This document shows positions 128 through 32,008 of a stretch of DNA of 43,703 bases, piece by piece. How positions within the stretch are numbered: position 1 is the stretch's first letter; each line of letters opens with the position of its first letter. The DNA comes from a virus, in the IMG/VR virus record IMGVR_UViG_3300032435_000019; one strand, 5' to 3'. Below the pieces are notes generated by a model, which saw nothing but the letters and a program-made list of their open reading frames with translations, searched no databases and was not told where the DNA came from. The translations under genes and the position numbers were made by a program.

Positions 128-1293
128 CCGTTAAAGTCCCATAATGGGTCGGGAGAGGATGCTCCGATCTGGAGGTTGTCGGATACCTCGCTGGGCTTGC
201 GGATCATGCTGGCTGTGGTGTTCCGCTGCACGCCGTCGATAAACCATGTGCCGTTGGTGCCCTGGAGAACGAAGGCGACGTGGTGCCATGTGTCGTCTGT
301 GAGCGCTATATCGGTAATCGATGAGCTCTGCTGTGCTGCGGCGTTTCTCATGTAAAACGCCAGCCTATTGTCGGTCCGGCGCTCTATGTTCCAGCGGTTT
401 GCTGTATTCGTGCCGTCGCGGTTTGTGACGATATAGTTTGGGTCTGCGTCCGGGCGGAGCTTGATCCAAAAATCGACCGTCATTGCGTTGGGGTGAAATC
501 CGAAGTCGGTGCTTGCGACTGCGGTTTTTATTTCATCGCCGTTGCCGTCGAATGCGATGCTGCCGGTGTAGCTTCCTGGAGGCTTCTCTATCGCTGTTAG
601 CGCCGGCGTGCCTAGAAGGTTGAGCGCGTAGCCGACTGGGCCCTGGTCGGTAATGTCCTGGGCGTTGGCTGCGACCTGCGGGTCTCCGGTCATTATGAAT
701 ACGACGTCGCTGAAAAACGGGTCTAGTAAAACGTCTATGTCGCTGGTCTCCGCGTGCGTCAGCAGGACTATGTCATTAAAGTATTCGTCGATCAAAACGC
801 CGTCGTAGGCTATAAATTCCGGAACGACTGGCGCGTGCGCGAGCGGCCACCAGGATTCTATGGCCTCGAAGGTGGCGCTGCCCACGCTTCCGGTTTCGTT
901 GCCGCCGGCGTTAATCCACCATGCGGGCTCTGTTGGAAAGCTGCCGCCTGGGACGAGGCAGCGATAAACGTAGCCGGTCTCGTTTCCTGGTGTCGGGCGA
1001 ATAATATCGCCTACGCTGAACGCGGTGCCCGGCGTCCATCGGTCGCCGTAATCGTCTAGTGCGATGATGATTACTTCGCCGAGGAAGCCCTCTAGGTCGA
1101 TTTGGTATTCGCCTAGAGCGTTGGATCGCGCTGTGCCCATGACCTGCCGTATCTTGAGCGGAAAGCCGGCTCCGTCGTCGCTGCCTGCGAGGTCTATCGG
1201 GTGATAGCTTAGTGCTATGACGTTCCGTTCGACCGGCTCGCCTAGTAGCGTTATGACGCCCGAAACTTTCCCTGAGTCCTGTCCTAGTGGCAT
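1..1293 (-). CDS. Tail fibre / receptor-binding protein, N-terminal part of an ORF that wraps the junction and continues at 43576 down to 41909 (about 986 aa in total). This part contains the first LamG/concanavalin-like domain.
   Basis: The ATG at 1293..1291 overlaps the TAA of the upstream gene (TAATG). I translated the minus frame by hand from 1293 to 1 and found no stop (MPLGQDSGKVSGVITLLGEPVERNV...WLAQLRITRAARYTESFTLP). The frame is continuous with 41909..43375, because 43576-43375 = 201 = 3x67. The ORF track misses it because it runs off the window edge. Confidence 0.8.
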   Translation of the reverse strand, partial: MPLGQDSGKVSGVITLLGEPVERNVIALSYHPIDLAGSDDGAGFPLKIRQVMGTARSNALGEYQIDLEGFLGEVIIIALDDYGDRWTPGTAFSVGDIIRPTPGNETGYVYRCLVPGGSFPTEPAWWINAGGNETGSVGSATFEAIESWWPLAHAPVVPEFIAYDGVLIDEYFNDIVLLTHAETSDIDVLLDPFFSDVVFIMTGDPQVAANAQDITDQGPVGYALNLLGTPALTAIEKPPGSYTGSIAFDGNGDEIKTAVASTDFGFHPNAMTVDFWIKLRPDADPNYIVTNRDGTNTANRWNIERRTDNRLAFYMRNAAAQQSSSITDIALTDDTWHHVAFVLQGTNGTWFIDGVQRNTTASMIRKPSEVSDNLQIGASSPDPLWDFNGWLAQLRITRAARYTESFTLPSAPLPLQRSTYYNGIVNQISNA

Positions 1294-4200
1294 TAGTCTG
1301 CGTCGCCTCGTAGCTGTAGGGTGAACTGATCGTTGGCCTGGGTGGCTTGTCCGGATAGCGTGGTGCGGGATAGCCATATAGGTCCGAGGCAGCCCTCGGT
1401 ATTAAACCGCAATACGTTATTGGTTGCCCAGCCTATTCCCCAGCCGGCCTGTCGAACGACGAAGTATGGCTCGTTTTTGTTGGGGTTCATTGGCGCGGTG
1501 TCGCCGTTGATGTTCCCCTGGCCTATGACGCCGAGCTGCTCGCCTACTATGTAAAATGAAGTGCTGCTGTAGAACCACAGCGCCCATTTTTCAGTGATTG
1601 CGCCGTTGTTGGCGTACTCGATTGGATTGTCGATGTTGTTGTATTGCGCCGTCGTTTCATCGCCCTGGCGCTGGTCGGTCCAGTTGGGGTCTCCGCTGTT
1701 CCAGACTTTTTGCGTGAACTCCGAATAGACGCGGCTATTCAAGTCGCCCCAAAGCAAGGCCGAGCTTACCGAGCATCCCGCTGGGTAGTCGTGCGCTAGC
1801 GGCGCTATGAATGATAGCTCGCCGGTGATCTGTACGTCGTTGAGCAGCGTCATGTGCTCTATGCGATATTTGATCGTTAGCGGCGCGGTGATGGGATTGG
1901 TGTTCGCGTCCTGCAGTAGAACGGGGTCGGCGAATTGCACGATGCCCTGCTCTTTGGCGACGGTGTACTGCGCTGGGTCCATTGCTTTGCCGGTGCTGTC
2001 GTAAACGATCGCTGAGGCTATGAAGGTATCGCCCAGGTCGATTGCGGCGTTGTCTGCCGGCGTGCCTATATCAACTTCCTGGTTGTTGCTTATGACTACG
2101 ACGTCGCCTGTTCGGTATATCGGGACTCTGCCGTCGGATGGCAGGCGTACCGGATCGAGGCCTATTAGCTCGGCGTCTAGTGGTAGGAAGCTGAATAGAA
2201 CGGCGTTGTAGATGCCGTTTCCCTGGACCGGCGTCATGCTCGCTCCGGTGGCGTCTGATTCGTCGGTCGTGAAACTGAGCGCGACGATGCCGGTCTGGTA
2301 GTTGACTTTTCCGATAACCCCTGGCGCTATGAGGTCGCCTTCGCTGTCGCTGGTGATGTTTATGATGTTGCCTTCTAAGTCGGTCACAATTATTTGAAGC
2401 GATGTTGGCCGTATCGGTGCCCCTGGTGTTCTGAATACCATGCTGGTTGCGAAGGATGTTTTGCCTGCGGTCGTGAGGCTTAGTATGTTCACGCCTGGGG
2501 CTGCTCCTCCTGTCCAGGTGTTTAGTGTGACGATCCGCTCCTGGTAGTCGATGGTACCGACTGCTGTTCCGGCTCCTGTTTTGCTGTCAAATCCGCGGTA
2601 TATAATGCCGTCGCGGTCGTAGTATTTCTGACCGCCAAACACAAAGAGGACGCTGTCCTCGATGATTATGTCGTCGCCTGTTGGGACTAGCTTTACCTCT
2701 AGCGCTCCAGGATTGTATCCGACAAGCGCGCTTGGGATGTTCGGGTCGCCCGCCTGTCGATACTTCGCGTAATAGCTCTCTTTTAGGTATCTGAGCCCGG
2801 TGACGTTTACTGTTCGGATGCTACTTTCCCATCCGCTTGCTGGTGCCTCCCAGCGATACCATTCTTGATAGCTGTAGGCGTAGTTTTCCGCTTTTACTAT
2901 TTCCCAATAGCCGGTTTGGTAGTCGATAGATCCGCCTATGCCGCCAAGCCAGCCGCCGGCACCGTCGTCGCGCACAAGGACGCGTGCGGACAGATAGTCA
3001 ACGCCGCGCCCAGTTTGGCGCTGGGCCATCATTATCTCGACGGTTCCTGGCGAGACCGGCACGTTGTCAAAGGTGCCCGATGTTATCCTGGTGCCGGCGC
3101 TATAGTTTTCGTAATTCTCGTTGAAGGCGATGCCGCTGGTGTAGGTGGCGTCGAAGGTCGTGCCGTCGTCATGGATTGTTATCGGCTTGAGCTTTGCGAG
3201 CCCGCTGGTGTAGTTGATCGTGCCTTCGCCGTCGCCCTGGAGGTTTCCTGCGCCGTCGTCTGTGACGGTTTTTAGGTTGCCGCCGCTGGTGTATGTGATC
3301 GTGATGGTGCCTGGGACTAGGGCGTCGTCCATTTGGACCTGGATTTCTGGTATCCAGTCGGCGATGGTGCCTTCGTGCGTCTCGTATTCCTCGTCGATAT
3401 CCATTATCCAGTTGTAGATTATGGCGGTGCCTACGTCGGGGAGCGCCTCGGTGGTGACTAGCGTGGTGCCCGTTGCGTAGTCGACTGAACCGGTGCCGGT
3501 CCCTATTAGCTGTCCGGTGCCGTTGTCGCGTAGTTCGTACCAGCGCCCCTGCGCCATGTAGCTTACGATCATGGTTCCTGGTCGCGGTTTATCCTGGGCG
3601 AAGGTGTACGTCCAGTTGTAGCCGCGGTTGTTGATTGTGATTTCTCTTTGGAGCGATACCGCTCGGCCGGTGAAGCCTGCGCCTGGGATGTAGCTGGCTG
3701 TTCCGGTGACGTTGCCCGAGCCGGTGCCGCTGTCCCTGGTCCCGAATATTGCGCCGCTATCGTAGTCGACGTTGAGTGTAGCGAATGGGAATGATCCGCT
3801 CGCCCTGGTTAGGATGCCGCTGCCGTTGTCGGTGTACGAGCTGCCGCCGATGATTAGCGATAGGCTGCGCCGCACGCAGGCCCTGTTGGTGAATACCTGG
3901 AAGTTTGTTCCGCTGGTGTAGGTGCCGGTGATGGCCTCGCTAATAGCGTTCGCTCGTCCTGCTATTACGATCAGGGACTCGTAGCCTGCCACCTGATTGA
4001 GTAGCGGCTGCTCGCTTTGCGCGCTCGGGACTAGGCTGCTGTATATGCTGTCGACTTTGATCTTGAGGTCGCCTACAGATGCCGGCTCCTCGCTTTTTTT
4101 GACGCCCCAATAGCGGGCCGCGTCGGCGACTTCGGTGCCAAATATTTTGGCGTTATTGTTGCCGGTGGTGGTTCCTGGTGTCGGCTGCCCGCCGGTGAAG

Positions 4201-4796
4201 GTTTGCTCTAGCGGTGCGCTTATGGATAGGACGAGCCGCATACGGGTGAAGTCAACGAAGCCGCTGCTGGTCTCGTAGCTAAATACTGTCGGTTCCGCGT
4301 CTACCTGGGTGATCCGGACGTACTGCTCGTCATTGCCCTCTTTGATAAGGTAGACGTCGCCTGTAGCCGGCAGCGCGGTCTCTAGTCGCTGGATGCAGAC
4401 GATCTGACGCTGGTTTTCGAACTGGTTGCCTATGAATTCAAACTGCGCGGCCGCTCCCTGGACGACGTATGATTCTATACGGTCCTGGGCGCTCGCCCGC
4501 TCGTCGTACTCGTTGCCCGCGTCGAATATGAGGACGTTGACTAGCGGGTCCGCTGGCGGCTCTGTGATGATAGCGTGCGCGCCCAGGTAAAGATCGCTAT
4601 TGTTAGTGTCTACGCCGACAAACGCCTTCCGGAGCGCTACGTCACCGACGGTCCTATCGAGGCGGCTTATGTCCTCGAATAGATTATTTATATTCCCGTC
4701 GATTACTTCGCGGCCTGTCGCCCTGCCGCCGCCGTCGTTCTCGTCGCTGAGTCGCTGGCTTTCGTATAGTTTGACGTCCTCGGGATTGATAGACAT
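1293..4796 (-). CDS. Large distal tail / host-specificity protein (1167 aa)
   Basis: Long ORF two genes downstream of the tape measure. It has repeated beta-rich segments, each ending in a G-x-G-x-(I/V)-(D/N)-Y-x-(T/S)-G motif (SVDYATG, TINYTSG, SIDYQTG, KVNYQTG, TIDYQER). It is translationally coupled to both neighbours. Confidence 0.7.
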   Translation of the reverse strand: MSINPEDVKLYESQRLSDENDGGGRATGREVIDGNINNLFEDISRLDRTVGDVALRKAFVGVDTNNSDLYLGAHAIITEPPADPLVNVLIFDAGNEYDERASAQDRIESYVVQGAAAQFEFIGNQFENQRQIVCIQRLETALPATGDVYLIKEGNDEQYVRITQVDAEPTVFSYETSSGFVDFTRMRLVLSISAPLEQTFTGGQPTPGTTTGNNNAKIFGTEVADAARYWGVKKSEEPASVGDLKIKVDSIYSSLVPSAQSEQPLLNQVAGYESLIVIAGRANAISEAITGTYTSGTNFQVFTNRACVRRSLSLIIGGSSYTDNGSGILTRASGSFPFATLNVDYDSGAIFGTRDSGTGSGNVTGTASYIPGAGFTGRAVSLQREITINNRGYNWTYTFAQDKPRPGTMIVSYMAQGRWYELRDNGTGQLIGTGTGSVDYATGTTLVTTEALPDVGTAIIYNWIMDIDEEYETHEGTIADWIPEIQVQMDDALVPGTITITYTSGGNLKTVTDDGAGNLQGDGEGTINYTSGLAKLKPITIHDDGTTFDATYTSGIAFNENYENYSAGTRITSGTFDNVPVSPGTVEIMMAQRQTGRGVDYLSARVLVRDDGAGGWLGGIGGSIDYQTGYWEIVKAENYAYSYQEWYRWEAPASGWESSIRTVNVTGLRYLKESYYAKYRQAGDPNIPSALVGYNPGALEVKLVPTGDDIIIEDSVLFVFGGQKYYDRDGIIYRGFDSKTGAGTAVGTIDYQERIVTLNTWTGGAAPGVNILSLTTAGKTSFATSMVFRTPGAPIRPTSLQIIVTDLEGNIINITSDSEGDLIAPGVIGKVNYQTGIVALSFTTDESDATGASMTPVQGNGIYNAVLFSFLPLDAELIGLDPVRLPSDGRVPIYRTGDVVVISNNQEVDIGTPADNAAIDLGDTFIASAIVYDSTGKAMDPAQYTVAKEQGIVQFADPVLLQDANTNPITAPLTIKYRIEHMTLLNDVQITGELSFIAPLAHDYPAGCSVSSALLWGDLNSRVYSEFTQKVWNSGDPNWTDQRQGDETTAQYNNIDNPIEYANNGAITEKWALWFYSSTSFYIVGEQLGVIGQGNINGDTAPMNPNKNEPYFVVRQAGWGIGWATNNVLRFNTEGCLGPIWLSRTTLSGQATQANDQFTLQLRGDAD

Positions 4797-5190: not shown

Positions 5191-8100
5191 TTAGCTGGTC
5201 CTCAGTCCGGCCTGCGCTAGCAGGTTTAGTAGTTGCGAGGGATTATCGGTGCTTACGTTGACCGATTGCCCGCCGAGCTTTAGCTCTATGACTTGCTGGG
5301 CTCCGGTGTTTGCTGTCGGCTTTGTAGCGTTCGGCTCCTGGGAGGCTGCGGTGCGTGATTTCGCCTGATCCTGGGCGGCTTTTTGCGCTTTGTCCTCGGC
5401 CCTGTTTTTGGCTTCCAGGTCGTATATTTCTCGGGTTAATTTCAGCGACGCCTCTAGGTCTGCGATGGAGTCCTTGTTTTTGAAGAAGCGGGCCTGCTCT
5501 AGCTCGGCCTCTAGGGTCGCTATATCGCGCTGCAGGTTGCGCTGCTCGACGGCTTCTATGTTGCCCCTGAGTCGGTCTAGCTTGTCTTGTAGCGCGCCCA
5601 GGGCTCGGTCTGTGGAGTCGGATAGCCGGTCCATTTCCTGGCTGGCGCGCTGTATTCCTTGCGTTAGGTTGCTGAGGTCCTGGTCGTTTAGCAGGTCGCT
5701 GCTTTCGACCATTTGCTGCGCCCGACGGATGAAATCCTCCTGGGTGACGCTGCCGTCCTCGAAACTCTGGAATAGCCGCCGCGCTGCGATGGTCTGCTCT
5801 AGGAATGCTTCCTCTACTTTTCGGGCCTCGGTTCGCAATGTTTTGAGATAGCCTTGCATTCCGCTGGTGTCGGCGAGAGCAAGCCCTTCCAGTCGGATGT
5901 TGCCTATTTCGAGCGATACCTGCTTGAGCCGAGACTGTAGGGCCTCTAGCTCGTCCATTGGCTCTGCCGCGCCAAGCGCTAGCTGGTCGAATGCCTGGGC
6001 CGCGCCGGAGGAGAGTTCCTGTAGCTGTGCCCTGTAGCCTTCTATCGCGTCGATTAGAAATGCCATTGCGCTGCCGGCTTTGGCTGCTCCAGCCTCCACG
6101 CCGTCGCCTAGTCCCGCGCCCGCTTCACCGGCTCCGGCCATTTCGCTACGGAGGACGCGCAGGCGCTCGGTGAGCCCGTTGATCTTTGCGTCGCTTGCCT
6201 CGGCATCGTCGCCTACTGATTTCAACGCCGCGGCGTATTGCGTGGCGTCTATGGTTCCCGCTACTAGCTGGGCTCTGAGCGCTTCTAGTAGCTGCTTTTT
6301 CCCTGCGTCGGTTTTGACTTTTGCAAAGGCGGCCTGGAATGCGGCGATGATCTTTTTGCCGGCTATGTCAGCCGCGTCACCGCTCTGAGCTATGTTGTCC
6401 GCTACCACGCCGAAGTTGCGGATTGCCTCCTGGCCGACGTCGCTGATTCCGTCGGTTACTAGGCCGAGGTCTACGTTGAGGTTTTTTAGCGCCGCGGTAA
6501 CGGTCTCGTTTATCGTGGTGGCGAATTCGTCGGCTCCGTTTATGCCCTGCTCAAAGGCAAACTGCGCGTTTATTGCGAATGCCGATAGCTCGTTCGCGCT
6601 TAGGTCCTTTAACGCCGCGCCGAGCCTTTCCTTGATGGTGTCCGCTGTGATGAGGCCCTGCTCTGCGAGGTCCGCTAGGATCGCTATTACTTCGCCGACG
6701 TCCTGGGTGACGGTGAGGTCGTAGTCTTTGAATATTGTGTCTAGGGCCTCGCCTGACTTTTCGCCCTCCGCTGTTAGCGCCTGGAACTTTGTAGTGGCCG
6801 ATTCGACTGCTAATTCGAGCTCGGATTTTATTGCGTCCGCGGTGTCGCTTACTGCGCGGGATGTTAGGTCGAGCGAGGCGTTGTATTCGGCGATAGCGTC
6901 TGTGCCGGTGATCCATTTTTCGTTGGCTCGATCGAATACTGCGGTGCCTTCCTCCTGCATTTTGATCATATCGTCGAGGCTGGTGACGGCTATGCCGGTC
7001 TGCTCGGCGAATTGCGCCATGCGCTGCGCTGCTTCGTCCTCCAGGCCCGCTTTCCCCTGGAGCGATTTGTCTAGCTCCTTCCTCGCGGCTATTAGGTCCT
7101 GAAATCTGCTGACGGTGAGGGCTACCGCTTGAATCAATCCCGCCCACGCGAGGCCTGTCACAAGGGGGCCTAGCGCTCGCAATGCGACGGTTGCTTTAGA
7201 TACGCCGCCGGTTAGTGTGCCGCCGAATGCCGCGCCCAGGCTGGTTACGTTTTTGATGCCCTCGGATAGCTTTAGTCCTAACCAGGCCGCGCCTAGCAAT
7301 TTGATCGCTGGTATGGAGGCGACGACCGCCTGGGTGAATAGGGATATAGCGGAGAATACCGCTACCATTCCGTCGCTTACTTGCTGCGCCCAGCGCCGGA
7401 GCGTGCCGTCGTCTGATAGCGTTTTGATTCGTTCGGAAACGGAGGCGATGCGATTCTTGAAATCTTCTAGTGCGCCGCTTTCGGAGATGGCGTTTAAGAA
7501 ATTGACCCAGGTGTCTTTTAGGTTCGATACGAGGCCGCTCAACAAGCTCATGTTGGCCGCGGCTGCGCCGGTGGACGACTTGCCCATTTCGTCAATTAGG
7601 GCCTTTATGGCGTCCTTTCCGAGCGCTCCGGCGGCGCTCATGTCCTGGATTTCGGCGGCCGTCTTGCCGGTGGCTTTGCTGAGTAGCTCGTATACGGGGA
7701 CGCCTCGCTCTATGAGCTGGAGCATTTCCTCGGCCTGGAGCTTTCCTTTTGCGTTAGCCTGCCCGAGCGCGTTGGCGATACCAATTAACCTCTCCTGGCC
7801 GCCGCCCAGCTTTTCGTTCTGATCGACGATCGCCTGTAGGGTGCCGTCCATTGGGTCGAGGCCGAAGTTCTTGAGCCGCAGGAATGCGTCGGTCACGCCC
7901 TCTAGCTGGAGCGGTGTATTAGTTGCGAAGTCCTTTATCCAGCCGGTGGCCTTGTCGCCTTCCTCGATACTGCCCATGACTGCGCGCATCTGAATGGCGA
8001 GCTTTTCGAACTTGTCGCCGGTGGATAGCACTGCTGTAAAGGCGTTTTTTACTGCGGCAAACCCCACGGCCGCGCCTACTAGCGCACCGACCCGCTTTGC

Positions 8101-25522: not shown

Positions 25523-27037
25523 TTAATTTTTGCGTTCTCCGCGGAGCATTCCGAGGAGCCTGCCCATTACGGTGGCCCGCTGTACGGTGTCGACTATCTC
25601 CTGGGGCGCGGTCTCCTCCATCATGTCGGCGATGTGCTTTTTGAATGTTTCGAAGTCCTGGTTCTCCTCTAGGTATCCGAGGAGCTGCTCGACCCGCTTG
25701 CCGTAAAGCTCTTTGTATTTGGTGGCGAGCCCTGCCGCGGCGTCTGCTAGTAGTTGCTGGTCGTTCCGGTGCCCTGCCCTGGCTGCCAGGAGGCTGCTTA
25801 TCTCGGCGAACTCCGCGGGCATAGGTCCTTGCCCTCCGGTCATTAGTGCCGGCGGGACAACGGCTTCCTTGCGCTTTTCCCAGCCCATGCCGTAGGTGTC
25901 CTCGATGTATTCGAGGGTCGGGTCGTAGCCTAGTGCGTAGATTTTGGCGTCGCGCTCGGCGCGATGATTGAGGTCCTCCGGCGGCGCTGTGTCCCGTACT
26001 ATCGAGGGCACGCCTGCGCCTGGGAAGTTCCACTCGGTTAGCCACTTGCCGGCGGTCCTCTTGAAGCTGTCGGCTATTAGGTCGCCGTCTGCGTCGGTTA
26101 GGTCGTTGGCGACGCCCTGGTGCACCTCGGCCTGGGATCGGCTGCTGCCGCTGTCCGTGGTCATGGTCTGCGATAGGATTACTTTCGATATTGCGCCGTC
26201 CATCTTTCCGGCTAGCTGGGCGTAGTCGGCGGTTCCGGATCGGGCGGCCTCGATTAGCTCTATGACCATGCTGTCGGGTATTACGACGCCGCTGTCCTGC
26301 TGAATAGATTGGAGGGCCGACTTGGCTTTGCGTATCTGTACCGGGTCGTTCATTTGGCCGTCGGGTATTCTGATGGCGGTGGTTGGCATCCCGAATTTCT
26401 CAAGGAATACGAGCCAGAACTTTATGTCGTTGCGCTTAAAAAATACCGGCCAATAAAGCGAGTGCGCGAGGCCCTGGCCGTAGGGATTGTCGTCGTGGCT
26501 TGCGCCGGCGGCGTAGGTCCAGAACTTGTTTTCCGGCATGACGAGGCCCTGCGAGTGCTTTAGGTCGTCCATTAGCATTAGCTGGTTGTCGACGTTCCAC
26601 TTGAAGCGGGAGCGGTCGCGGACCTTTATCGCGTCGAGGCCGACTTTGTTGTCCTCGGTCATGCCCCACATGAATTCCGCTACGCTGAATCCGTAGAATA
26701 CGCCGTATAGCATCTTGTCGGTTATGTCGTCCCAGCCAACTTTCTCTAGCTGCTGCCGGAGGAATTCCGCGGCCGCTTTGTCTGTTGCCGATTCGCTTTC
26801 CGAATCAATTTTCCATGTGGAACTTGTTAGCGCGCTGCGGCGCTGCTGAAAGCATGACTTGACCTGATCGTCGCGTAGGAGCTCGTCGTATACCTTGAAG
26901 TCGGGCCCGCGGCTTTTGAGCACGCTGTCCGGATTCTGGATTAGCATGTGGGTGTAGGCGTAGCTCATGGCGAAGCCGTGATCGTCGTGCGCCATTTCCT
27001 GCTGCAGCGGTTTTGCTGGTTTCTTTTTGGTAGCCAT
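25523..27037 (-). CDS. Portal protein (Mu gp29 / DUF935-like)
   Basis: 504 aa, between TerL and MuF. The N-terminal pattern ...NPDSVLKSRGPDFKVYDELLRDDQVKSCFQQRRSAL is typical of DUF935 portals. Confidence 0.9.
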   Translation of the reverse strand: MATKKKPAKPLQQEMAHDDHGFAMSYAYTHMLIQNPDSVLKSRGPDFKVYDELLRDDQVKSCFQQRRSALTSSTWKIDSESESATDKAAAEFLRQQLEKVGWDDITDKMLYGVFYGFSVAEFMWGMTEDNKVGLDAIKVRDRSRFKWNVDNQLMLMDDLKHSQGLVMPENKFWTYAAGASHDDNPYGQGLAHSLYWPVFFKRNDIKFWLVFLEKFGMPTTAIRIPDGQMNDPVQIRKAKSALQSIQQDSGVVIPDSMVIELIEAARSGTADYAQLAGKMDGAISKVILSQTMTTDSGSSRSQAEVHQGVANDLTDADGDLIADSFKRTAGKWLTEWNFPGAGVPSIVRDTAPPEDLNHRAERDAKIYALGYDPTLEYIEDTYGMGWEKRKEAVVPPALMTGGQGPMPAEFAEISSLLAARAGHRNDQQLLADAAAGLATKYKELYGKRVEQLLGYLEENQDFETFKKHIADMMEETAPQEIVDTVQRATVMGRLLGMLRGERKN

Positions 27038-28653
27038 TACTCGTACCCTCCGAAGTCGTTGTTACTGCGCACGCCCAGGTCTAGGTCGTCCGTTGCTGAA
27101 TGCCTGCTCCTGCCTGTGTCGGAGAAGCCTGCCCTGGTCGTTCCGCTGCTGTGGCTGTCTACTGCCATTTTCGAACTGTGAGCCCATTTCAGGAATTGGC
27201 TGAATGCGTCCACTTGATCGTCGTTGGAAACCAGCGGATAGCCGAATAGCTCGCTTTCGAAGTCGACCAGCCACTCTGCCCACTCGGGCAAATATACGAG
27301 CTTGGCCTCTACTATCGAGGAGACTGCTACTAGCCGCTCGGTCTTGTTGAGCGATTTCGGGTCTATTGCAATGGCCGGCGGCGTGTACCATTCCCCCTCC
27401 TGTATTTTGACGCCTTCGCGTGCTTCCTGGATTAGCGACTGCCCGCTTGCCTTGTCCTCTATGAGAACGGCTATCGGGTTCCACTTCATGCCCAAACTGT
27501 ACATGGAACGCCTGACGTCTGGATATAGCAGGCGCTTCCTGAATACGTCTAGCAAATAGTAGCCCTGCCGCGTTTCGCCCCAGGTTAGGCAGACGCTCGG
27601 GTCGTTGATTTCCTTGTCTTTGTACGCGGTGTCCCAGGATTGAACTATTCGTAAAAATTCGGCCGGCGGTGTGCCATAACGCTGAATCCATGATCGCTGT
27701 ATGAGCGATCCTTCCGCTGGCTTCGGTCGTTGCTGGTATAGGGCGGCCCAATTCCTGCTGCCCCTGTTGCGCTTTTCACGCTGCCAATGCGCCGGCGTGA
27801 ACCAGTCGGTCCATAGATATTCGCCTGCCTCACGCCCGAGCGGGTCGTCGTCCCTGGTGCACTCGGCCTCTAGGCATAGGACGTACCAGGGCTCGCCGGT
27901 GCGGCTTTCGATCCAGCCGCTCTGCCCATCCCACTCCTCCGGCAATATTCGGCCGCTTAGATCGTCCTCGTGCCAGCGGGTCTGGACGATAACGATTGCG
28001 CCTTCCGGTTTTAGTCGGGTGGTGAGGTCGTCCTGGTAGGCGTCCCACGTTTTGTCCCGTATGACCTGCGAGTCGGCCTGCTCCCTTCCCTGGACGGGGT
28101 CGTCTACGATGATTAGCTTGGCCCTGTTGCCGGTTAGGCCGGATAGTATGCCGCCGCACATAAACGTGGCGTCGTTGGTTAGGCTCCAGTCGTTGGCTGC
28201 CCTGTTGCCGGAGCGGAGCTCGGTCTTGTAGAGGTTTTTGAACTCAGGCGAGCTGGTTAGCTGCCGGCCCTTCCGGCCGAACTTGTCCGCTAGCTGGCTG
28301 CCGTAGCTGGTTAGAATGACCGGCTCGTTTGGGTGGTTTGCCATGTAGAACGGCGGGAAAGTTACGCTGACGTAGGTGCTTTTGGCGCTCCCTGGTGGCA
28401 TGAATACCATTAGGCGCTTTATGGTTCCGTCGTTTACTTCCTGGAGCTTGCTGTTGAGTAGGGTGTGGTGCTCCGCGGGCGTTACTCTGTCCGGATAGAA
28501 CTCCTCGCAGTCCTCGTCGTCGTTAAGCGGCGCGCCTGGGATTTTGACGTATCGGCAAAAGGTGTCGAGGTGGCTCGCGGCCTGCTTTCTGTATAGCGCC
28601 TCCTTTGCCTTTACTATCTGGACAAGCGAATCAGTGCGTTGTTGGGCCGTCAT
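27037..28653 (-). CDS. terL: Terminase large subunit
   Basis: Walker A-like motif MVFMPPGSAKST, ATPase motif LIIVDDP, a nuclease-half acidic motif, a size of 538 aa and a position upstream of the portal. Confidence 0.9.
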   Translation of the reverse strand: MTAQQRTDSLVQIVKAKEALYRKQAASHLDTFCRYVKIPGAPLNDDEDCEEFYPDRVTPAEHHTLLNSKLQEVNDGTIKRLMVFMPPGSAKSTYVSVTFPPFYMANHPNEPVILTSYGSQLADKFGRKGRQLTSSPEFKNLYKTELRSGNRAANDWSLTNDATFMCGGILSGLTGNRAKLIIVDDPVQGREQADSQVIRDKTWDAYQDDLTTRLKPEGAIVIVQTRWHEDDLSGRILPEEWDGQSGWIESRTGEPWYVLCLEAECTRDDDPLGREAGEYLWTDWFTPAHWQREKRNRGSRNWAALYQQRPKPAEGSLIQRSWIQRYGTPPAEFLRIVQSWDTAYKDKEINDPSVCLTWGETRQGYYLLDVFRKRLLYPDVRRSMYSLGMKWNPIAVLIEDKASGQSLIQEAREGVKIQEGEWYTPPAIAIDPKSLNKTERLVAVSSIVEAKLVYLPEWAEWLVDFESELFGYPLVSNDDQVDAFSQFLKWAHSSKMAVDSHSSGTTRAGFSDTGRSRHSATDDLDLGVRSNNDFGGYE

Positions 28654-29110
28654 GGCGTCCTATCGTTTTGGCCTCTAGTTCCTTGATCCGATTCTCTAGC
28701 TCCTCGACGGTCATGTTGTCGTAATCGTCCTCGGGCCTGGGTAGGTCGCGGCCCTTGCTGTCGGTGTTTGCGATCTTGTCCGGCGCTTTGAATCCTCCGA
28801 TTGCGGCCTCCTGGCGTGCTAGCTTTTCCCATCGGTCGATATGCTCTAGCGCGCCGCCTTTCGCCTTCGTCCATATCGCCTGCATGAGGATGTTTATTCT
28901 CATCAATTGGCGGGTTCGTAGGTTGTCGATGGTCTGCTGTGTCCGTAGTTCGTACTCGCTGAACGCCTCCTGAACGAGCTGATGCGCTCGGGTCTTGCTG
29001 ACGCCTATCTGCTCGCCTATCTGTTTCAATGAAAGGCCCGCCAGCATTAGGCTCACGGCCATTTCTCGCTTTTGCGCCATTGTGAATTTCTGCTTCATGG
29101 TTTGCGCCAT
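28631..29110 (-). CDS. Terminase small subunit candidate (HTH protein, 159 aa)
   Basis: The N-terminal HTH is LSLKQIGEQIGVSKTRAHQLVQEA. The gene lies immediately upstream of TerL and overlaps it by 23 nt. Confidence 0.6.
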   Translation of the reverse strand: MAQTMKQKFTMAQKREMAVSLMLAGLSLKQIGEQIGVSKTRAHQLVQEAFSEYELRTQQTIDNLRTRQLMRINILMQAIWTKAKGGALEHIDRWEKLARQEAAIGGFKAPDKIANTDSKGRDLPRPEDDYDNMTVEELENRIKELEAKTIGRHDGPTTH

Positions 29111-29120
29111 CGTTCAGTCT

Positions 29121-31436
29121 CTATAGGTTAAGTTCTGAATCCATCGCCGCTAGCTGCAGCGCCTCTAGGTCTACGGTTTTCACTTCGCCGATGGTCTCGG
29201 TGGCTAGCTTCGGGTCTCCTTTACAAAATACCATGACGTTGTCGTATGCCTGAAATACTGTGCGGTGCACTTTGAAGTGGTCTGCGACCGCTTTGCTGAG
29301 TCCCTTTATGTCGCCCAGGCTGGGCTCGCCTTTTGCGAATACCAGCGCGTTCTGGTGCCCTTTCGCTAGCTTCCGGCTGCTGCTGAACATACCGCCGGCG
29401 CGCATGGCGTTGCTTCCTATGTTGGTAAGCAGCACCGCCTCGTTGTAGTAGTGAAGGCCGGCCGCCTGGAAGGCCGCAATGGTATCCTGGACGAAACCCC
29501 TGTAACGCCCTTTGGGGTCTCGTACTTCGCCGACTACGAATACCGCGAATCTGTTGTCCTTTAGCATTTTGCAGCTTTCGCCGATTATGTGGGTGTAGGC
29601 CGCTATAAATTCGTGATATTCGAGGGTCGATAGGTCCTTCGGGTCGTCGCTGTAGACTTCCAGGTCGGCGTATGGAGGGCAACTAAAAACCATATCGTAT
29701 TCGCCTGGGGCGTGTTTTCGGACTTCCCTGGAGTCGCCTTCGATCCATCGCGGCTCTCCCTGGGCCTGTCGCATTATATCGAATGTGCCGACGTCGCCTG
29801 CTACGTTCCAGAATAATGCGCCTTCGCTGGCGTGCTCCTTGATGAATCTCCAGGCTTTGGCGTCGTAGTTGTTGCATGACTCGAAAGGCGGCGGCTGTTT
29901 TGCTGGGTCCTCGAACTTTTCCGGAGCCTCGTATAGCTTAGCCCTTCCGACCTGGGGGTCTTTGCCTATGGCTACCGCGTGGAATTCAGCGTCAGGCCAA
30001 GCCTGCTGTAGCGCCCTGGTTAGGACGCCGCTTCCTGCTACGGTCCAGACTTCGGTCGGTGTTTCTCCGGTCTCTAGCGCGACGGCCGCTATGGCGTCGA
30101 TGAAGTCCTGGTTATCTAGGCCGAATTCGATGTAGTGCGCGCCGGTCTCCTCGGCGAAGTCTCGGGCGGCCTTTTGGGTGGCGATTAGGTATCTCGCGTC
30201 GACTTCGTGGACTACTGCTCCGGCTCGCGCTGCGGCTTCGGTCCTGGCGTGCGGCTTTTTGCGTCGGCCTGCGACGAATATATGCGCTTGCTTCCCTGTT
30301 GCCCTGGCTGCGGCCGCTAGCGCTATTTGCGCGAAACCATAGGCCGGTGTGGCGTACACGAAGGTGGTCTCGGGAGAGGCGGCGAGCACTCGCTCTAGCG
30401 CCCTTCGTTTGGTGCCGCCGAATACATCGTCGTCGCGGAGTACTCGGATGCCGTCGTGCTCCTGGATTCTGGTTGGTGGTAGGTCTGCCGCCGGCTTCCC
30501 TGGTGTTTGGGCTCCGAGTATTTTGAAGGCCTGTTGTCGGTTAGCCTGTATCTGCTCGCCGCGTAGGTCGATGCCGGTGTAGTTGTAGCCGAGGAATCCT
30601 GCGACCAATCCGCGGACGCTGCCGCCGGCGAACGGGTCTAGGATCGCGCCGCCTGGAGGGCAAAACCATGAGTAGCTTATCTCGGTTAGCACCGGGTCGA
30701 ATATGCTTGTTCCGGTTAGCGTTATCTCCTCGGGGAATTCCTCGACGAACTCCTGCCAGGTTAGCTTGCGCCCGCGCTGGGCTTCTACCTTGTTTTTGAA
30801 TTCGTAAACGCCTGGAGGCTGGCTGCTGACGGCGTAGGTTAGGCCGCGCTCTGTTTTGTCGCCCTCGTTGCCGCGGCCTAGTTCTGACTGGATGCCTAGT
30901 TGTAGCCATAGGTTCTTGCGGTCCTTCCAGTAGCCCTGCTTGGCGTCTAGCACGCTGAATGGCGGGACGAGGAAGCGCTGCTGTAGTCCTTGGCGCGCTT
31001 CCTCCTGCTGCCCGCCTCCGAAGTCCGGACCGTCGTCGGATAGTAGGCTTTGGAGAAATGCGTTCGCGGCCATATCGCCGACGCTGTGTATGCCTTCGAT
31101 TAGGTCGTCTAGTAGTCCCTGGTCCTGGGTGGCGAGTGCTGATATTGGGTCTATTGCTGCTAGCGCGATCCGCTCCTCGTTCTCGGATAGCTCGACGTAT
31201 TTTACCGGCACGCGCTCGCTCCGGCTCATGGCTAACTGAACGCGGAGGTGGCCGTCGATGATGTGGCCGGTGGTGGTGTTGACTATGACGTCCTGAATCC
31301 AGCCGATTTCATTTAGCACGCCGGCTAGCGCATCTTGCTGGTGCTTTGGGTGGTAGCGGAAGTTGTGCGGGTTGGCTAGTAGCTGCTCGGGGTCCTCGGT
31401 GCCGCTTCCGGTGATTCTGTTTTTCCAGTCGGTCAT
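29121..31436 (-). CDS. ParB-like domain / DNA amino-methyltransferase fusion, carrying an inserted PLP-enzyme-like domain (771 aa)
   Basis: ParB/Srx-like domain at aa 15-100. MTase motif I is LDPFAGGSVRG (aa 266-276) and motif IV is FSCPPYADLE (aa 584-593). The segment aa 322-548 resembles ACC deaminase / D-Cys desulfhydrase (IRVLRDDDVFGGTKRRALERVL, TVAGSGVLTRAL, ALFWNVAG). Confidence 0.85.
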   Translation of the reverse strand: MTDWKNRITGSGTEDPEQLLANPHNFRYHPKHQQDALAGVLNEIGWIQDVIVNTTTGHIIDGHLRVQLAMSRSERVPVKYVELSENEERIALAAIDPISALATQDQGLLDDLIEGIHSVGDMAANAFLQSLLSDDGPDFGGGQQEEARQGLQQRFLVPPFSVLDAKQGYWKDRKNLWLQLGIQSELGRGNEGDKTERGLTYAVSSQPPGVYEFKNKVEAQRGRKLTWQEFVEEFPEEITLTGTSIFDPVLTEISYSWFCPPGGAILDPFAGGSVRGLVAGFLGYNYTGIDLRGEQIQANRQQAFKILGAQTPGKPAADLPPTRIQEHDGIRVLRDDDVFGGTKRRALERVLAASPETTFVYATPAYGFAQIALAAAARATGKQAHIFVAGRRKKPHARTEAAARAGAVVHEVDARYLIATQKAARDFAEETGAHYIEFGLDNQDFIDAIAAVALETGETPTEVWTVAGSGVLTRALQQAWPDAEFHAVAIGKDPQVGRAKLYEAPEKFEDPAKQPPPFESCNNYDAKAWRFIKEHASEGALFWNVAGDVGTFDIMRQAQGEPRWIEGDSREVRKHAPGEYDMVFSCPPYADLEVYSDDPKDLSTLEYHEFIAAYTHIIGESCKMLKDNRFAVFVVGEVRDPKGRYRGFVQDTIAAFQAAGLHYYNEAVLLTNIGSNAMRAGGMFSSSRKLAKGHQNALVFAKGEPSLGDIKGLSKAVADHFKVHRTVFQAYDNVMVFCKGDPKLATETIGEVKTVDLEALQLAAMDSELNL
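29793..30473 (-). other. Inserted fold-type II PLP-dependent-enzyme-like domain within the methyltransferase (aa 322-548)
   Basis: GGTK(343)RRALE matches the GGNKxRKLE Schiff-base lysine motif. AGSG matches the phosphate-binding Gly loop. This is a motif match by eye only. Confidence 0.6.
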
Positions 31437-31494
31437 GCGGGCTCCTGCAGGCCGGTGGTTCCGGCGAGGTTATGGGTTTGGGTGCTGCGGTGTA

Positions 31495-31767
31495 TTACTT
31501 GGCGGGTGCGGGCTCGGACTGGATCGCTTTGATCGTTCGGACGAGCTCCGCGTTCCTGGTGAAGCAAATACCGGCGCGCCGGTTATTTTCAATCATTGCG
31601 TCGAGTACGTCTAGGTCGTTGTCGGTCGGTGGTTCAATTAGCGGCGGCGTCGGCTCTAGCAGCGGCTCCGGCACTGTTAGCTTCACGCACGCTGGCGGTG
31701 ACTGCGCGCAACCAATCAGGCCCGAGGTCGCAATTAGAAACGCTAGGGCGCTTGATATTCTGGACAT
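31495..31767 (-). CDS. o-spanin (outer-membrane lipoprotein, Rz1-like)
   Basis: Signal peptide with lipobox LIGC (MSRISSALAFLIATSGLIGCAQ), a Pro-rich mature part, and a start inside the i-spanin gene in another frame. Confidence 0.8.
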   Translation of the reverse strand: MSRISSALAFLIATSGLIGCAQSPPACVKLTVPEPLLEPTPPLIEPPTDNDLDVLDAMIENNRRAGICFTRNAELVRTIKAIQSEPAPAK

Positions 31768-32008
31768 TGCGGTTTAGCTCCTCGTTGGTCTGCTGTACGT
31801 CGCGCATGATGCCGATGGTCTTTTTCTGGAAAGACTCGAGTGTTTCTATGGCTTCTGCCATTTGTCCGGCCTGGGCGATGTTGATTTTCTGGAGTTGGTT
31901 TGTTGTTCCCTGGTGGTATCCGTAGCCGTAGAGGCCCAGGCCTGTTGCGGCTATGGCGGCGATCCACCATTTTGCTCCGGAGAAGAATGTTAGCACGCCG
32001 GCGATCAT
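31634..32008 (-). CDS. i-spanin (Rz-like)
   Basis: An N-terminal transmembrane segment (MIAGVLTFFSGAKWWIAAIAATGLGLYGY), a coiled-coil periplasmic part, and an overlap with the o-spanin gene. Confidence 0.8.
   Translation of the reverse strand: MIAGVLTFFSGAKWWIAAIAATGLGLYGYGYHQGTTNQLQKINIAQAGQMAEAIETLESFQKKTIGIMRDVQQTNEELNRNVQNIKRPSVSNCDLGPDWLRAVTASVREANSAGAAARADAAAN

What the first reader, a model, noticed from the sequence alone, without database searches (positions are those of the whole stretch)
29121..31436. ParB-DNA methyltransferase split by an ACC-deaminase-like PLP domain: candidate DNA-hypermodification or SAM-directed enzyme
Seen in sequence: the 771-aa ORF has a ParB/Srx-like N-terminal domain, then MTase motif I (LDPFAGGSVRG, aa 266-276), and motif IV (FSCPPYADLE, aa 584-593) only 319 residues later. 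The intervening aa 322-548 (nt 29793..30473) do not look like a target-recognition domain. IRVLRDDDVFGGTKRRALERVL parallels the hallmark KREDxxxxxxFGGNKTRKLEYL of ACC deaminase / D-cysteine desulfhydrase, with the Schiff-base lysine retained (K343). ATPAYGFAQIALAAAARATGKQAHIFV parallels the GGxQSNxxRxxAAxAAxLGxKCxL strand-helix. TVAGSGVLTRAL parallels the Gly-rich PLP-phosphate loop. GALFWNVAG parallels the C-terminal hTGG strand. Established knowledge: the MTase fold binds SAM, and fold-type II PLP enzymes act on the alpha-amino-acid part of small substrates. Some MTase-fold enzymes transfer the aminocarboxypropyl group of SAM rather than the methyl group. Phages are known to hypermodify their DNA using PLP enzymes, and also to destroy SAM as an anti-restriction measure. 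Inference: placing a PLP active site in the loop between the SAM pocket and the catalytic (S/D)PPY motif suggests chemistry on the amino-acid moiety of SAM. That could be a non-methyl base modification or SAM cleavage. From memory, ordinary ParB-MTase fusions are about 300 aa shorter, with motifs I and IV only tens of residues apart. I know of no characterised member with this architecture, but I could not search.
Basis: partly seen in the sequence, partly recalled or inferred. Interest (0 to 1): 0.85.

Follow-up and report, generated by a model that had tools for sequence, protein, structure and literature searches.

The report
Phage DNA methylase with embedded PLP enzyme
A phage gene makes a DNA-modifying methyltransferase that carries a second, complete enzyme domain inside it, of the vitamin-B6 (PLP) type related to ACC deaminase. 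The pairing is common in phages but has not been described. It suggests the phage adds something more than a methyl group to its DNA, or destroys the methyl donor SAM, though neither has been tested.

Summary
Window 29121-31436 (− strand) encodes a 771-aa protein (P0001). It has three parts: an N-terminal domain of the ParB/sulfiredoxin fold; a circularly permuted N6/N4 amino-methyltransferase, with motif I DPFAGGSVRG at aa 266-276 and an unusual motif IV CPPY at aa 586-589; and, at residues ~317-552, a complete but compact fold-type II PLP domain. In predicted-structure searches this domain's best matches are ACC deaminase and D-cysteine desulfhydrase (VIA Z 21.6, rmsd 2.8 Å over 234 residues). 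The Schiff-base lysine K343 and the phosphate-binding loop line up with those of ACC deaminase. K343 is kept in roughly 95 fused homologs and in 35 stand-alone copies of the domain. The architecture is widespread in phages: thousands of homologs, including cultured Erythrobacter, Microcystis and Pseudanabaena phages. Relatives of about 516 aa lack the insert. In some phages the PLP domain is a separate gene, in one case translationally coupled to an insert-less ParB-methyltransferase. The gene sits in the late region between the lysis and terminase genes. Both domains are conserved under constraint, so both are probably active. My best guess, not tested, is a two-step DNA modification in which the PLP domain works on the amino-acid (aminobutyrate) part of a SAM-derived group. 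Whether the PLP pocket faces the SAM pocket could not be measured.

The parts
29121..31436 (-). Whole ORF, 771 aa, ParB-like / permuted amino-methyltransferase / PLP-domain fusion (P0001)
31442..31446 (-). Shine-Dalgarno AGGAG, 5 nt upstream of the ATG
31032..31436 (-). N-terminal ParB/sulfiredoxin-fold domain (aa 1-~135)
   Evidence: homology transfer: aligned relatives P0111/P0019 hit PF02195 ParB_N and TIGR00180; BFVD structural hits to phage ParB/Srx proteins
30489..30989 (-). First half of the permuted methyltransferase (aa ~150-316) with motif I DPFAGGSVRG (aa 266-276; window 30609-30641) and the acidic motif II region (GIDL)
   Evidence: Pfam N6_N4_Mtase, profile positions 179-217; conservation
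29781..30488 (-). Inserted compact fold-type II PLP domain (aa 317-552), ACC deaminase / D-cysteine desulfhydrase-like
   Evidence: Pfam PALP; Foldseek/VIA Z 21.6 to 1j0a; absent from 516-aa relatives; stand-alone homologs of ~230 aa
30408..30410 (-). K343, the putative PLP Schiff-base lysine (in the RDD...GGTK motif)
   Evidence: aligned to the 1j0a GGNK lysine; conserved in fused and stand-alone homologs
30027..30044 (-). Gly-rich PLP phosphate-binding loop VAGSG (aa 465-470)
   Evidence: aligned to 1j0a AAGSGG and the OASS GxGTGG loop; invariant in A3
29865..29879 (-). Conserved S520/C521 and Y524 (ESCNNYD): candidate N1-contacting Ser and catalytic Tyr (inference from their relative position only)
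   Evidence: invariant or nearly invariant in A3; mapping to ACC deaminase residues not tested
29121..29780 (-). Second half of the permuted methyltransferase (aa 553-771): GDS segment, motif IV CPPY (aa 586-589; window 29670-29681), conserved C-terminal region
   Evidence: Pfam PF01555 N-terminal profile positions map here in relative P0024; conservation
28631..29110 (-). Downstream neighbour: terminase small subunit-like protein (packaging module begins)
   Evidence: PHROGs hit is odd: phrog_645 'RNase E'; TerL 27037-28653 and portal 25523-27037 follow
31634..32008 (-). Upstream neighbour: Rz-like spanin (lysis module)

Best explanation
This is a late-expressed phage DNA-modification enzyme. 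The ParB/sulfiredoxin-fold N-terminal domain probably binds DNA or a nucleotide. The circularly permuted amino-methyltransferase binds SAM and modifies an exocyclic amine (adenine N6 or cytosine N4) of the phage's own DNA before packaging. The inserted, catalytically competent, ACC deaminase-like fold-type II PLP domain adds a second, coupled step. My committed guess is that it acts, at the same DNA-bound site, on the 2-aminobutyrate (homoserine-derived) part of a SAM-derived group. The most likely version: the methyltransferase fold transfers the aminocarboxypropyl group of SAM (as TYW2 does in tRNA) instead of, or besides, a methyl group. The PLP domain then trims the amino-acid side chain by decarboxylation, deamination or γ-elimination, giving a new hypermodified base that resists restriction. 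Shown here: the domains and their fold, conservation of the PLP catalytic residues, the modular fusion/split pattern, and the late-gene position. Inferred: the substrate and the reaction.
For: (1) The insert has a complete fold-type II PLP fold, closest to ACC deaminase / D-cysteine desulfhydrase (VIA Z 21.6, rmsd 2.8 Å over 234 residues). The enzymes of this group process C4 amino acids with a leaving group on Cβ/Cγ and release 2-oxobutanoate. SAM, SAH and an aminocarboxypropyl group all carry that same C4 skeleton (established chemistry; the link is my inference). (2) The Schiff-base lysine K343 and the phosphate loop are conserved across about 95 fused and 35 stand-alone homologs. The methyltransferase motif I and motif IV are also ≥90% conserved, so both domains are under constraint. 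(3) Rosetta-stone linkage: the PLP domain is fused in most relatives. In L002 it is a separate gene whose ATG overlaps the stop codon of an insert-less ParB-methyltransferase (ATGA). In L001 it lies 3 genes from a methyltransferase. (4) The domain sits at the junction of the permuted methyltransferase. That is where the original N- and C-termini of the methyltransferase core meet, which is a natural insertion site; another relative carries a different domain there (P0107, CxxCxxCC). (5) The gene lies between the lysis and packaging modules in the window and in relatives, the usual place for phage genes that modify DNA before packaging. (6) There is a precedent for a fold-type II (TrpB-like) phage PLP enzyme acting on an amino acid attached to a DNA base: ViI gp226 (PMC8989533).
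Against: No experiment on any member. Nothing shows that the methyltransferase transfers aminocarboxypropyl rather than methyl, and this clade's relatives are annotated simply as DNA adenine methyltransferases. Insert-less relatives with the same methyltransferase motifs exist with no PLP gene within ~17 kb (L009/L010), so the methyltransferase can act without the PLP domain. The PLP domain has no detectable sequence relation to the known thymidine-hypermodification PLP enzymes. The window has no other hypermodification genes. The inter-domain geometry could not be measured (pTM 0.61), so the PLP pocket may not face the SAM or DNA site.
Confidence: 0.35

Rival explanations
1. An ordinary N6-adenine or N4-cytosine DNA methyltransferase that protects phage DNA from restriction. 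The PLP domain does a separate helper task on a small molecule, for example breaking down SAH or a SAM by-product to relieve product inhibition, or making some metabolite. It does not change the DNA mark.
For: Clade relatives without the insert are annotated as DNA adenine methyltransferases (phiFL3A gp36). Motif I and motif IV are conserved in fused and insert-less forms alike. The PLP domain is optional in related phages.
Against: A fusion and a translationally coupled split point to a close link between the steps, which an unrelated small-molecule activity does not explain well. Motif IV is the unusual CPPY, not DPPY/NPPY/SPPY.
Confidence: 0.3
2. A SAM-depleting anti-restriction enzyme. The methyltransferase pocket presents SAM to the ACC deaminase-like PLP domain, which γ-eliminates it to 5'-methylthioadenosine, 2-oxobutanoate and ammonia (chemistry like ACC deaminase acting on the SAM-derived ACC). 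This starves host SAM-dependent restriction systems, much as T3 SAMase does.
For: The fold relatives (ACC deaminase) process a SAM-derived C4 skeleton into 2-oxobutanoate (established). The PLP domain is fused to a SAM-binding module. The gene is expressed in the late region.
Against: Destroying SAM would defeat the methyltransferase in the same chain, and motif I/IV are conserved, so the methyltransferase is constrained. No PLP enzyme is known to act as a SAM lyase, and this fold family is not known to act on SAM. The stand-alone PLP copy in L001 is not next to its methyltransferase.
Confidence: 0.15
3. The PLP domain is a non-catalytic scaffold, for example for DNA binding or dimerisation, inherited from an enzyme.
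For: It is 235 aa, about 70-100 aa shorter than typical fold-type II enzymes. Pfam scores for P0001 sit just below the gathering score.
Against: The catalytic lysine, the phosphate loop and candidate N1-contacting Ser/Cys and Tyr are invariant in ~130 homologs. Stand-alone copies must fold and work on their own.
Confidence: 0.1

Closest known systems
Phage ParB-domain N6/N4 DNA methyltransferases without the insert (e.g. Enterococcus phage phiFL3A gp36; Shewanella prophage protein P0014; ParB-CTPase-N6N4 MTase fusions noted in PMC12704722)
   Same: Same ParB N-domain plus permuted methyltransferase, same DPFAGGSVRG and CPPY motifs, same position just upstream of the terminase genes
   Different: No PLP domain: the motif I and motif IV halves are joined by a linker of ~10 aa, and the protein is ~445-520 aa
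ACC deaminase / D-cysteine desulfhydrase family of fold-type II PLP enzymes (1j0a, 1tzk/1rqx, YedO 4d8t, 7ysl)
   Same: Fold (Z 21.6, rmsd 2.8 Å over 234 residues); RDD...GGxK Schiff-base lysine motif; GSG phosphate loop
   Different: Compact at ~235 aa rather than ~320-340 aa; embedded in a methyltransferase; scores far below the ACC deaminase (TIGR01274) and D-cysteine desulfhydrase (TIGR01275) family cut-offs; substrate unknown
PLP-dependent decarboxylases of phage thymidine hypermodification (phage ViI gp226, phage M6 gp52; PMC8989533)
   Same: Phage fold-type II PLP enzymes (ViI gp226 is TrpB-like) that act on amino acids attached to DNA bases; present in some lineages and absent in others
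   Different: No detectable sequence relation; stand-alone genes working with 5-HMUDK/AADT on 5-hmdU, and no such partner genes are in the window
TYW2 (tRNA wybutosine aminocarboxypropyltransferase, Rossmann methyltransferase fold) — from knowledge, not tested here
   Same: Possible mechanism: a methyltransferase-fold enzyme transferring the aminocarboxypropyl group of SAM
   Different: Works on tRNA, not DNA; no PLP domain; no evidence here that P0001 transfers aminocarboxypropyl
Phage T3 SAMase / Svi3-3 SAM lyases (anti-restriction) — from knowledge
   Same: Possible function: destroying SAM during infection
   Different: Unrelated non-PLP fold; not fused to a methyltransferase

Membership tests
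Fold-type II PLP enzymes (PALP / tryptophan synthase β superfamily) | Two-subdomain α/β fold-type II structure | tested here: met
   VIA Z 21.6 / rmsd 2.8 Å over 234 residues to 1j0a, with many fold-type II enzymes at Z ≥20; Foldseek E 4e-10
Fold-type II PLP enzymes | Schiff-base lysine in the N-terminal segment | tested here: met
   K343 aligned to the 1j0a GGNK lysine; invariant in stand-alone copies and conserved in fused homologs
Fold-type II PLP enzymes | Gly-rich PLP phosphate-binding loop | tested here: met
   VAGSG (aa 465-470) aligned to the 1j0a AAGSGG loop; invariant
Fold-type II PLP enzymes | Usual length of ~300-350 aa | tested here: not met
   The domain is ~235 aa; stand-alone homologs are ~225-240 aa. 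It still aligns across target residues 17-316
Fold-type II PLP enzymes | PLP actually bound and Lys-dependent activity | not testable with these tools
   Needs a purified protein (absorbance at 410-425 nm, K343A)
ACC deaminase (TIGR01274) / D-cysteine desulfhydrase family (TIGR01275) | Score above the curated family cut-off | tested here: not met
   P0024 scores TIGR01275 39.8 bits (cut-off 289) and TIGR01274 21 bits (cut-off 392); P0001 insert PALP scores 33.5 bits against a gathering score of 35
ACC deaminase (TIGR01274) / D-cysteine desulfhydrase family (TIGR01275) | Catalytic Tyr (ACC deaminase Tyr294/295 equivalent) and substrate-specificity residues | not tested
   No residue-level structural alignment was available; invariant Y524 sits at a similar relative position, which is only a hint
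N6/N4 amino-methyltransferase (PF01555) | Motif I SAM-binding Gly-rich loop | tested here: met
   DPFAGGSVRG; Pfam 30.9 bits, above the gathering score of 26.7; ≥90% conserved
N6/N4 amino-methyltransferase (PF01555) | Motif IV (D/N/S)PP(Y/F) | tested here: not met
   CPPY: Cys replaces D/N/S, conserved across the whole clade including insert-less phiFL3A gp36
β-class amino-methyltransferase | Motif order with IV before I | tested here: not met
   Circularly permuted: the PF01555 model's N-terminal positions (motif IV) map after motif I (P0024 profile 2-110 at aa 601-726; P0001 profile 179-217 at aa 259-297)
ParB/sulfiredoxin fold (ParB_N, PF02195) | N-terminal ParB-like domain | tested here: met
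   Not detected in P0001 alone, but aligned relatives hit PF02195 (E 6e-5) and TIGR00180 (E 2e-6), and BFVD structural matches are phage ParB/Srx proteins
Phage thymidine hypermodification PLP decarboxylases (ViI gp226 / M6 gp52) | Sequence relationship and the partner pathway genes (5-HMUDK, AADT) | tested here: not met
   No tblastn hit to those phages at E<0.01; no such partner genes among the annotated window genes

The most novel reading that the evidence does not exclude
The methyltransferase fold of this clade transfers the 3-amino-3-carboxypropyl group of SAM onto an adenine N6 or cytosine N4 of phage DNA, rather than a methyl group (the CPPY motif IV may reflect this). The embedded ACC deaminase-like PLP domain then reshapes that amino-acid side chain in place, for example into aminopropyl or oxobutyl. 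This would be a new class of phage DNA hypermodification that starts from SAM's amino-acid part instead of its methyl group.
Probability: 0.2. Interest if true: 0.9.

Novelty: new variant of a known kind. Interest (0 to 1): 0.6.

Why it matters
If the PLP domain acts on a SAM-derived amino-acid group at the methyltransferase site, this family would show a route to DNA hypermodification in which SAM gives its aminobutyrate part, not its methyl group. The route would be common across phages of Proteobacteria and Cyanobacteria (thousands of sequences, several cultured phages) and is still uncharacterised. It would also mean that restriction and CRISPR systems face another phage DNA chemistry, and it would be a clean test case for fusions of PLP enzymes with methyltransferases. 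The family also holds a minimal (~230-aa) fold-type II PLP enzyme that can fold as a stand-alone protein, and an amino-methyltransferase clade with a Cys in motif IV; both are of interest even if the chemistry turns out ordinary. The experiment is straightforward and decisive: LC-MS of nucleosides from virion DNA of a cultured carrier phage (Erythrobacter phage vB_EliS_R6L or ZS04, Microcystis phage Mae-JY30).

Tried and rejected
I considered that the insert was the methyltransferase's target-recognition domain. Rejected: it is a complete PLP fold, the methyltransferase still has its conserved C-terminal region after CPPY, and insert-less relatives keep all methyltransferase segments. I considered that the insert was a chimera or assembly artefact. 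Rejected: there are ~95 fused homologs in independent contigs and cultured phage genomes, and the ORF is continuous with a proper Shine-Dalgarno. I considered that the PLP domain was degenerate. Disfavoured: its catalytic lysine and phosphate loop are invariant. I looked for a sequence link to the thymidine-hypermodification PLP decarboxylases of ViI and M6 and found none. A search of viral contigs with peptide patterns from the full protein found only two distant stand-alone PLP loci (L004/L005, 32% identity) with no methyltransferase nearby; this was uninformative. The literature searches found no description of a methyltransferase-PLP fusion, of DNA aminocarboxypropylation, or of a 'CPPY' motif IV, and no study of the cultured phages that carry the fusion. 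I did not send a complex-prediction job for the split methyltransferase and PLP pair in L002: halves of a split gene tend to pass by resemblance, and the fusion already shows they go together.
Full report
What is there. Window 29121-31436 on the minus strand holds a 771-aa ORF, P0001. It starts with an ATG and has an AGGAG Shine-Dalgarno 5 nt upstream. Pfam finds N6_N4_Mtase at aa 259-297, above the gathering score, and PALP at aa 342-490, E 3.8e-8, just under Pfam's gathering score. NCBIfam adds serine/threonine dehydratase and threonine synthase models on aa 344-471. An AlphaFold2 model built from a 121-sequence alignment of homologs has mean pLDDT 82 and pTM 0.61, and the insert region has pLDDT above 90. 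Searched against the PDB, model residues 317-552 align across nearly the whole chain of the Pyrococcus ACC deaminase homologue 1j0a (VIA Z 21.6, rmsd 2.8 Å over 234 residues). They align equally well to ACC deaminase (1tzk, 1rqx), D-cysteine desulfhydrase (7ysl, 4d8t), O-acetylserine sulfhydrylase and threonine deaminase (Z about 20-21). An HMM profile of the insert family matches 1j0a by sequence (E 1.2e-4). In that alignment the insert's RDD...GGTK aligns to 1j0a RDD...GGNK, so K343 sits at the Schiff-base lysine, and VAGSG aligns to the phosphate-binding loop AAGSGG. So the insert is a complete but compact (~235 aa) fold-type II PLP domain.

Domain layout. Relatives of about 516 aa (P0012-P0015, P0017, P0022) carry the same N-terminus and methyltransferase segments but lack exactly aa ~317-552. 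In them motif I (DPFAGGSVRG) and motif IV (CPPY) are about 70 aa apart. In the insert-bearing relative P0024, the N-terminal part of the PF01555 model, which contains motif IV, maps after the insert (aa 601-726), while in P0001 the model's C-terminal motif I region maps before it. The methyltransferase is therefore circularly permuted relative to the β-class order, and the PLP domain sits at the junction where the original termini of the core meet. A different relative (P0107) carries another domain, with a weak CxxCxxCC hit, at the same spot. That is true of the linear order but says nothing about 3D proximity, which I could not measure. The N-terminal domain gives no Pfam hit in P0001 itself. 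Aligned relatives hit ParB_N (PF02195, E 6e-5) and TIGR00180 ParB/Spo0J (E 2e-6), and the model's best BFVD matches include many phage 'ParB/Sulfiredoxin' proteins. So it is a ParB/Srx-fold domain, as claimed. Motif IV reads CPPY, with a Cys where amino-methyltransferases have D, N or S. This is kept across the whole ParB-methyltransferase clade, including the insert-less Enterococcus phage phiFL3A gp36. The C-terminal region after CPPY is unusually conserved for a target-recognition region.

Conservation. In an alignment of 121 homologs, all ~95 insert-bearing members keep the lysine in a GG(T/S)K or xRGGK context, across both insert subfamilies: the P0001 type and the more divergent P0024/P0111 type. 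The VAGSG or PVGSG loop is kept too. About 591 stand-alone proteins of ~225-240 aa are 55-62% identical to the insert. In 39 of them the RDD, GGxK lysine, AGSG loop, ESC(N/S)NYD and GALFWN motifs are invariant or nearly so. Methyltransferase motif I and motif IV are ≥90% conserved in the fused proteins. Both domains are therefore under purifying constraint, and the PLP domain is almost certainly catalytic.

Relation between the two domains. In L002 and L003 (a 130-kb and a 30-kb contig), an insert-less ParB-methyltransferase stop codon overlaps the start codon of a stand-alone PLP-domain gene (ATGA). That is translational coupling of the same two parts as separate genes. In L001, an 88-kb phage contig with DNA polymerase A and UDG, the stand-alone PLP gene lies three genes from a methyltransferase. 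In a Shewanella prophage (L009) and a related contig (L010), the insert-less methyltransferase has no PLP gene within ~17 kb. The PLP domain is thus a modular partner of the methyltransferase: fused, coupled, nearby, or absent. That is Rosetta-stone evidence that the two act together. It is not required for the methyltransferase to exist.

Genomic setting. The window is a temperate siphovirus-like genome: tail fibre and tape measure, major tail and major capsid proteins, maturation protease, portal, terminase large and small subunits, spanin, an endolysin-like protein, a late activator, Holliday-junction resolvase, replication proteins, a CI-like repressor, Bet/RecT, RecE and an excisionase. 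The fused gene sits between the lysis module and the terminase small subunit. Fused relatives sit in the same place in a Mu-like contig (L007/L008) and in a 277-kb NCBI contig (L006). Insert-less relatives sit there too (phiFL3A gp36, next to TerS; L009/L010). This is the late-gene position typical of phage genes that modify their DNA before packaging. Full-length fused homologs occur in cultured Erythrobacter phages vB_EliS_R6L and ZS04, Microcystis phage Mae-JY30 and Pseudanabaena phage Pam4. Insert-less versions occur in Enterococcus, Listeria and Mycobacterium phages and in Haloarcula californiae tailed virus 2. No paper describing the fusion or its chemistry was found.

How it most likely works. 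What is shown: a ParB-fold module, a SAM-binding permuted amino-methyltransferase, and a probably active ACC deaminase-like PLP domain, coupled by fusion or by operon structure in a late phage gene. What is inferred: the reaction. A PLP enzyme needs a substrate with a primary amine. Plain or methylated DNA bases have none, so the PLP domain most likely acts on SAM, SAH, or a SAM-derived group attached to DNA. The ACC deaminase / D-cysteine desulfhydrase relatives turn C4 amino acids with a Cβ/Cγ leaving group into 2-oxobutanoate and ammonia. SAM, SAH and an aminocarboxypropyl group share that skeleton (established chemistry; the link to this protein is my inference). Fusion makes most sense for sequential steps at one site. 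My committed guess (confidence about 0.35) is therefore a two-step DNA modification: the methyltransferase fold installs a SAM-derived group, probably aminocarboxypropyl as TYW2 does in tRNA, and the PLP domain reshapes its amino-acid side chain. There is a precedent for a phage fold-type II PLP enzyme acting on an amino acid attached to a DNA base: ViI gp226, a TrpB-like decarboxylase in thymidine hypermodification (PMC8989533). This protein shows no sequence link to it. Rivals: ordinary m6A/m4C methylation with a separate helper role for the PLP domain on SAH or a metabolite (about 0.3); SAM-depleting anti-restriction by γ-elimination of SAM (about 0.15, since it conflicts with a conserved methyltransferase in the same chain); a non-catalytic PLP scaffold (about 0.1, argued against by the invariant catalytic residues).

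Verdict. The specific chemistry is untested. This is a widespread, uncharacterised variant of the known phage ParB-amino-methyltransferase family. It merits moderately high interest because one nucleoside LC-MS experiment on DNA from an available cultured phage would decide among the readings.

Noticed in passing
window 29670-29681 (P0001 aa 586-589); phiFL3A gp36 (L011): Motif IV of the whole ParB-methyltransferase clade is CPPY (Cys instead of D/N/S), in fused and insert-less members alike. This is unusual for amino-methyltransferases and might mean different catalysis.
   Followed up: partly
P0001 aa 590-771 (window 29121-29670): The region after motif IV, where a β-class target-recognition domain would sit, is highly conserved across homologs (many invariant columns). 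That suggests a fixed or relaxed target sequence rather than a variable TRD.
   Followed up: no
L002 6197-6526 and 6523-8004: A small protein with a DUF559/Vsr-like look (FDFAFPDEKIAVEVEG, judged by eye; no Pfam hit on record) overlaps the start of the insert-less ParB-methyltransferase by 4 nt, and the methyltransferase's stop overlaps the stand-alone PLP gene. This may be a three-gene coupled operon.
   Followed up: no
stand-alone homologs P0122-P0241 (~225-240 aa): Hundreds of stand-alone fold-type II PLP proteins of only ~230 aa, about 70-100 aa shorter than usual, are annotated as threonine dehydratase by JGI. They may be a minimal fold-type II enzyme family.
   Followed up: partly
P0107 (711 aa); P0095/P0099/P0104: Other methyltransferases carry different domains at the same permutation junction: a CxxCxxCC zinc/iron-chelating-like domain (P0107), and in P0095/P0099/P0104 a different methyltransferase type with a ~350-aa insertion. 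The junction looks like an insertion hotspot.
   Followed up: partly
L009/L010 (Shewanella prophage and related contig) 7645-7953: Just upstream of the insert-less methyltransferase lies a protein with a weak or faint Acb2/Tad1 hairpin Pfam hit (anti-CBASS/anti-Thoeris family). L010 also has an antirestriction protein (PF03230) after Phage_Mu_F.
   Followed up: no
window 28631-29110 (-): The terminase-small-subunit-position protein next to the methyltransferase hits phrog_645, labelled 'RNase E', an odd label for this position.
   Followed up: no
window 29950-30700: The PLP-insert region has slightly higher GC (0.60-0.63) than its flanks (0.53-0.59).
   Followed up: no
window 1293-4796 (-): A 1167-aa protein with a strong hit only to the unknown-function family phrog_6128; probably a tail fibre or receptor-binding protein.
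   Followed up: no
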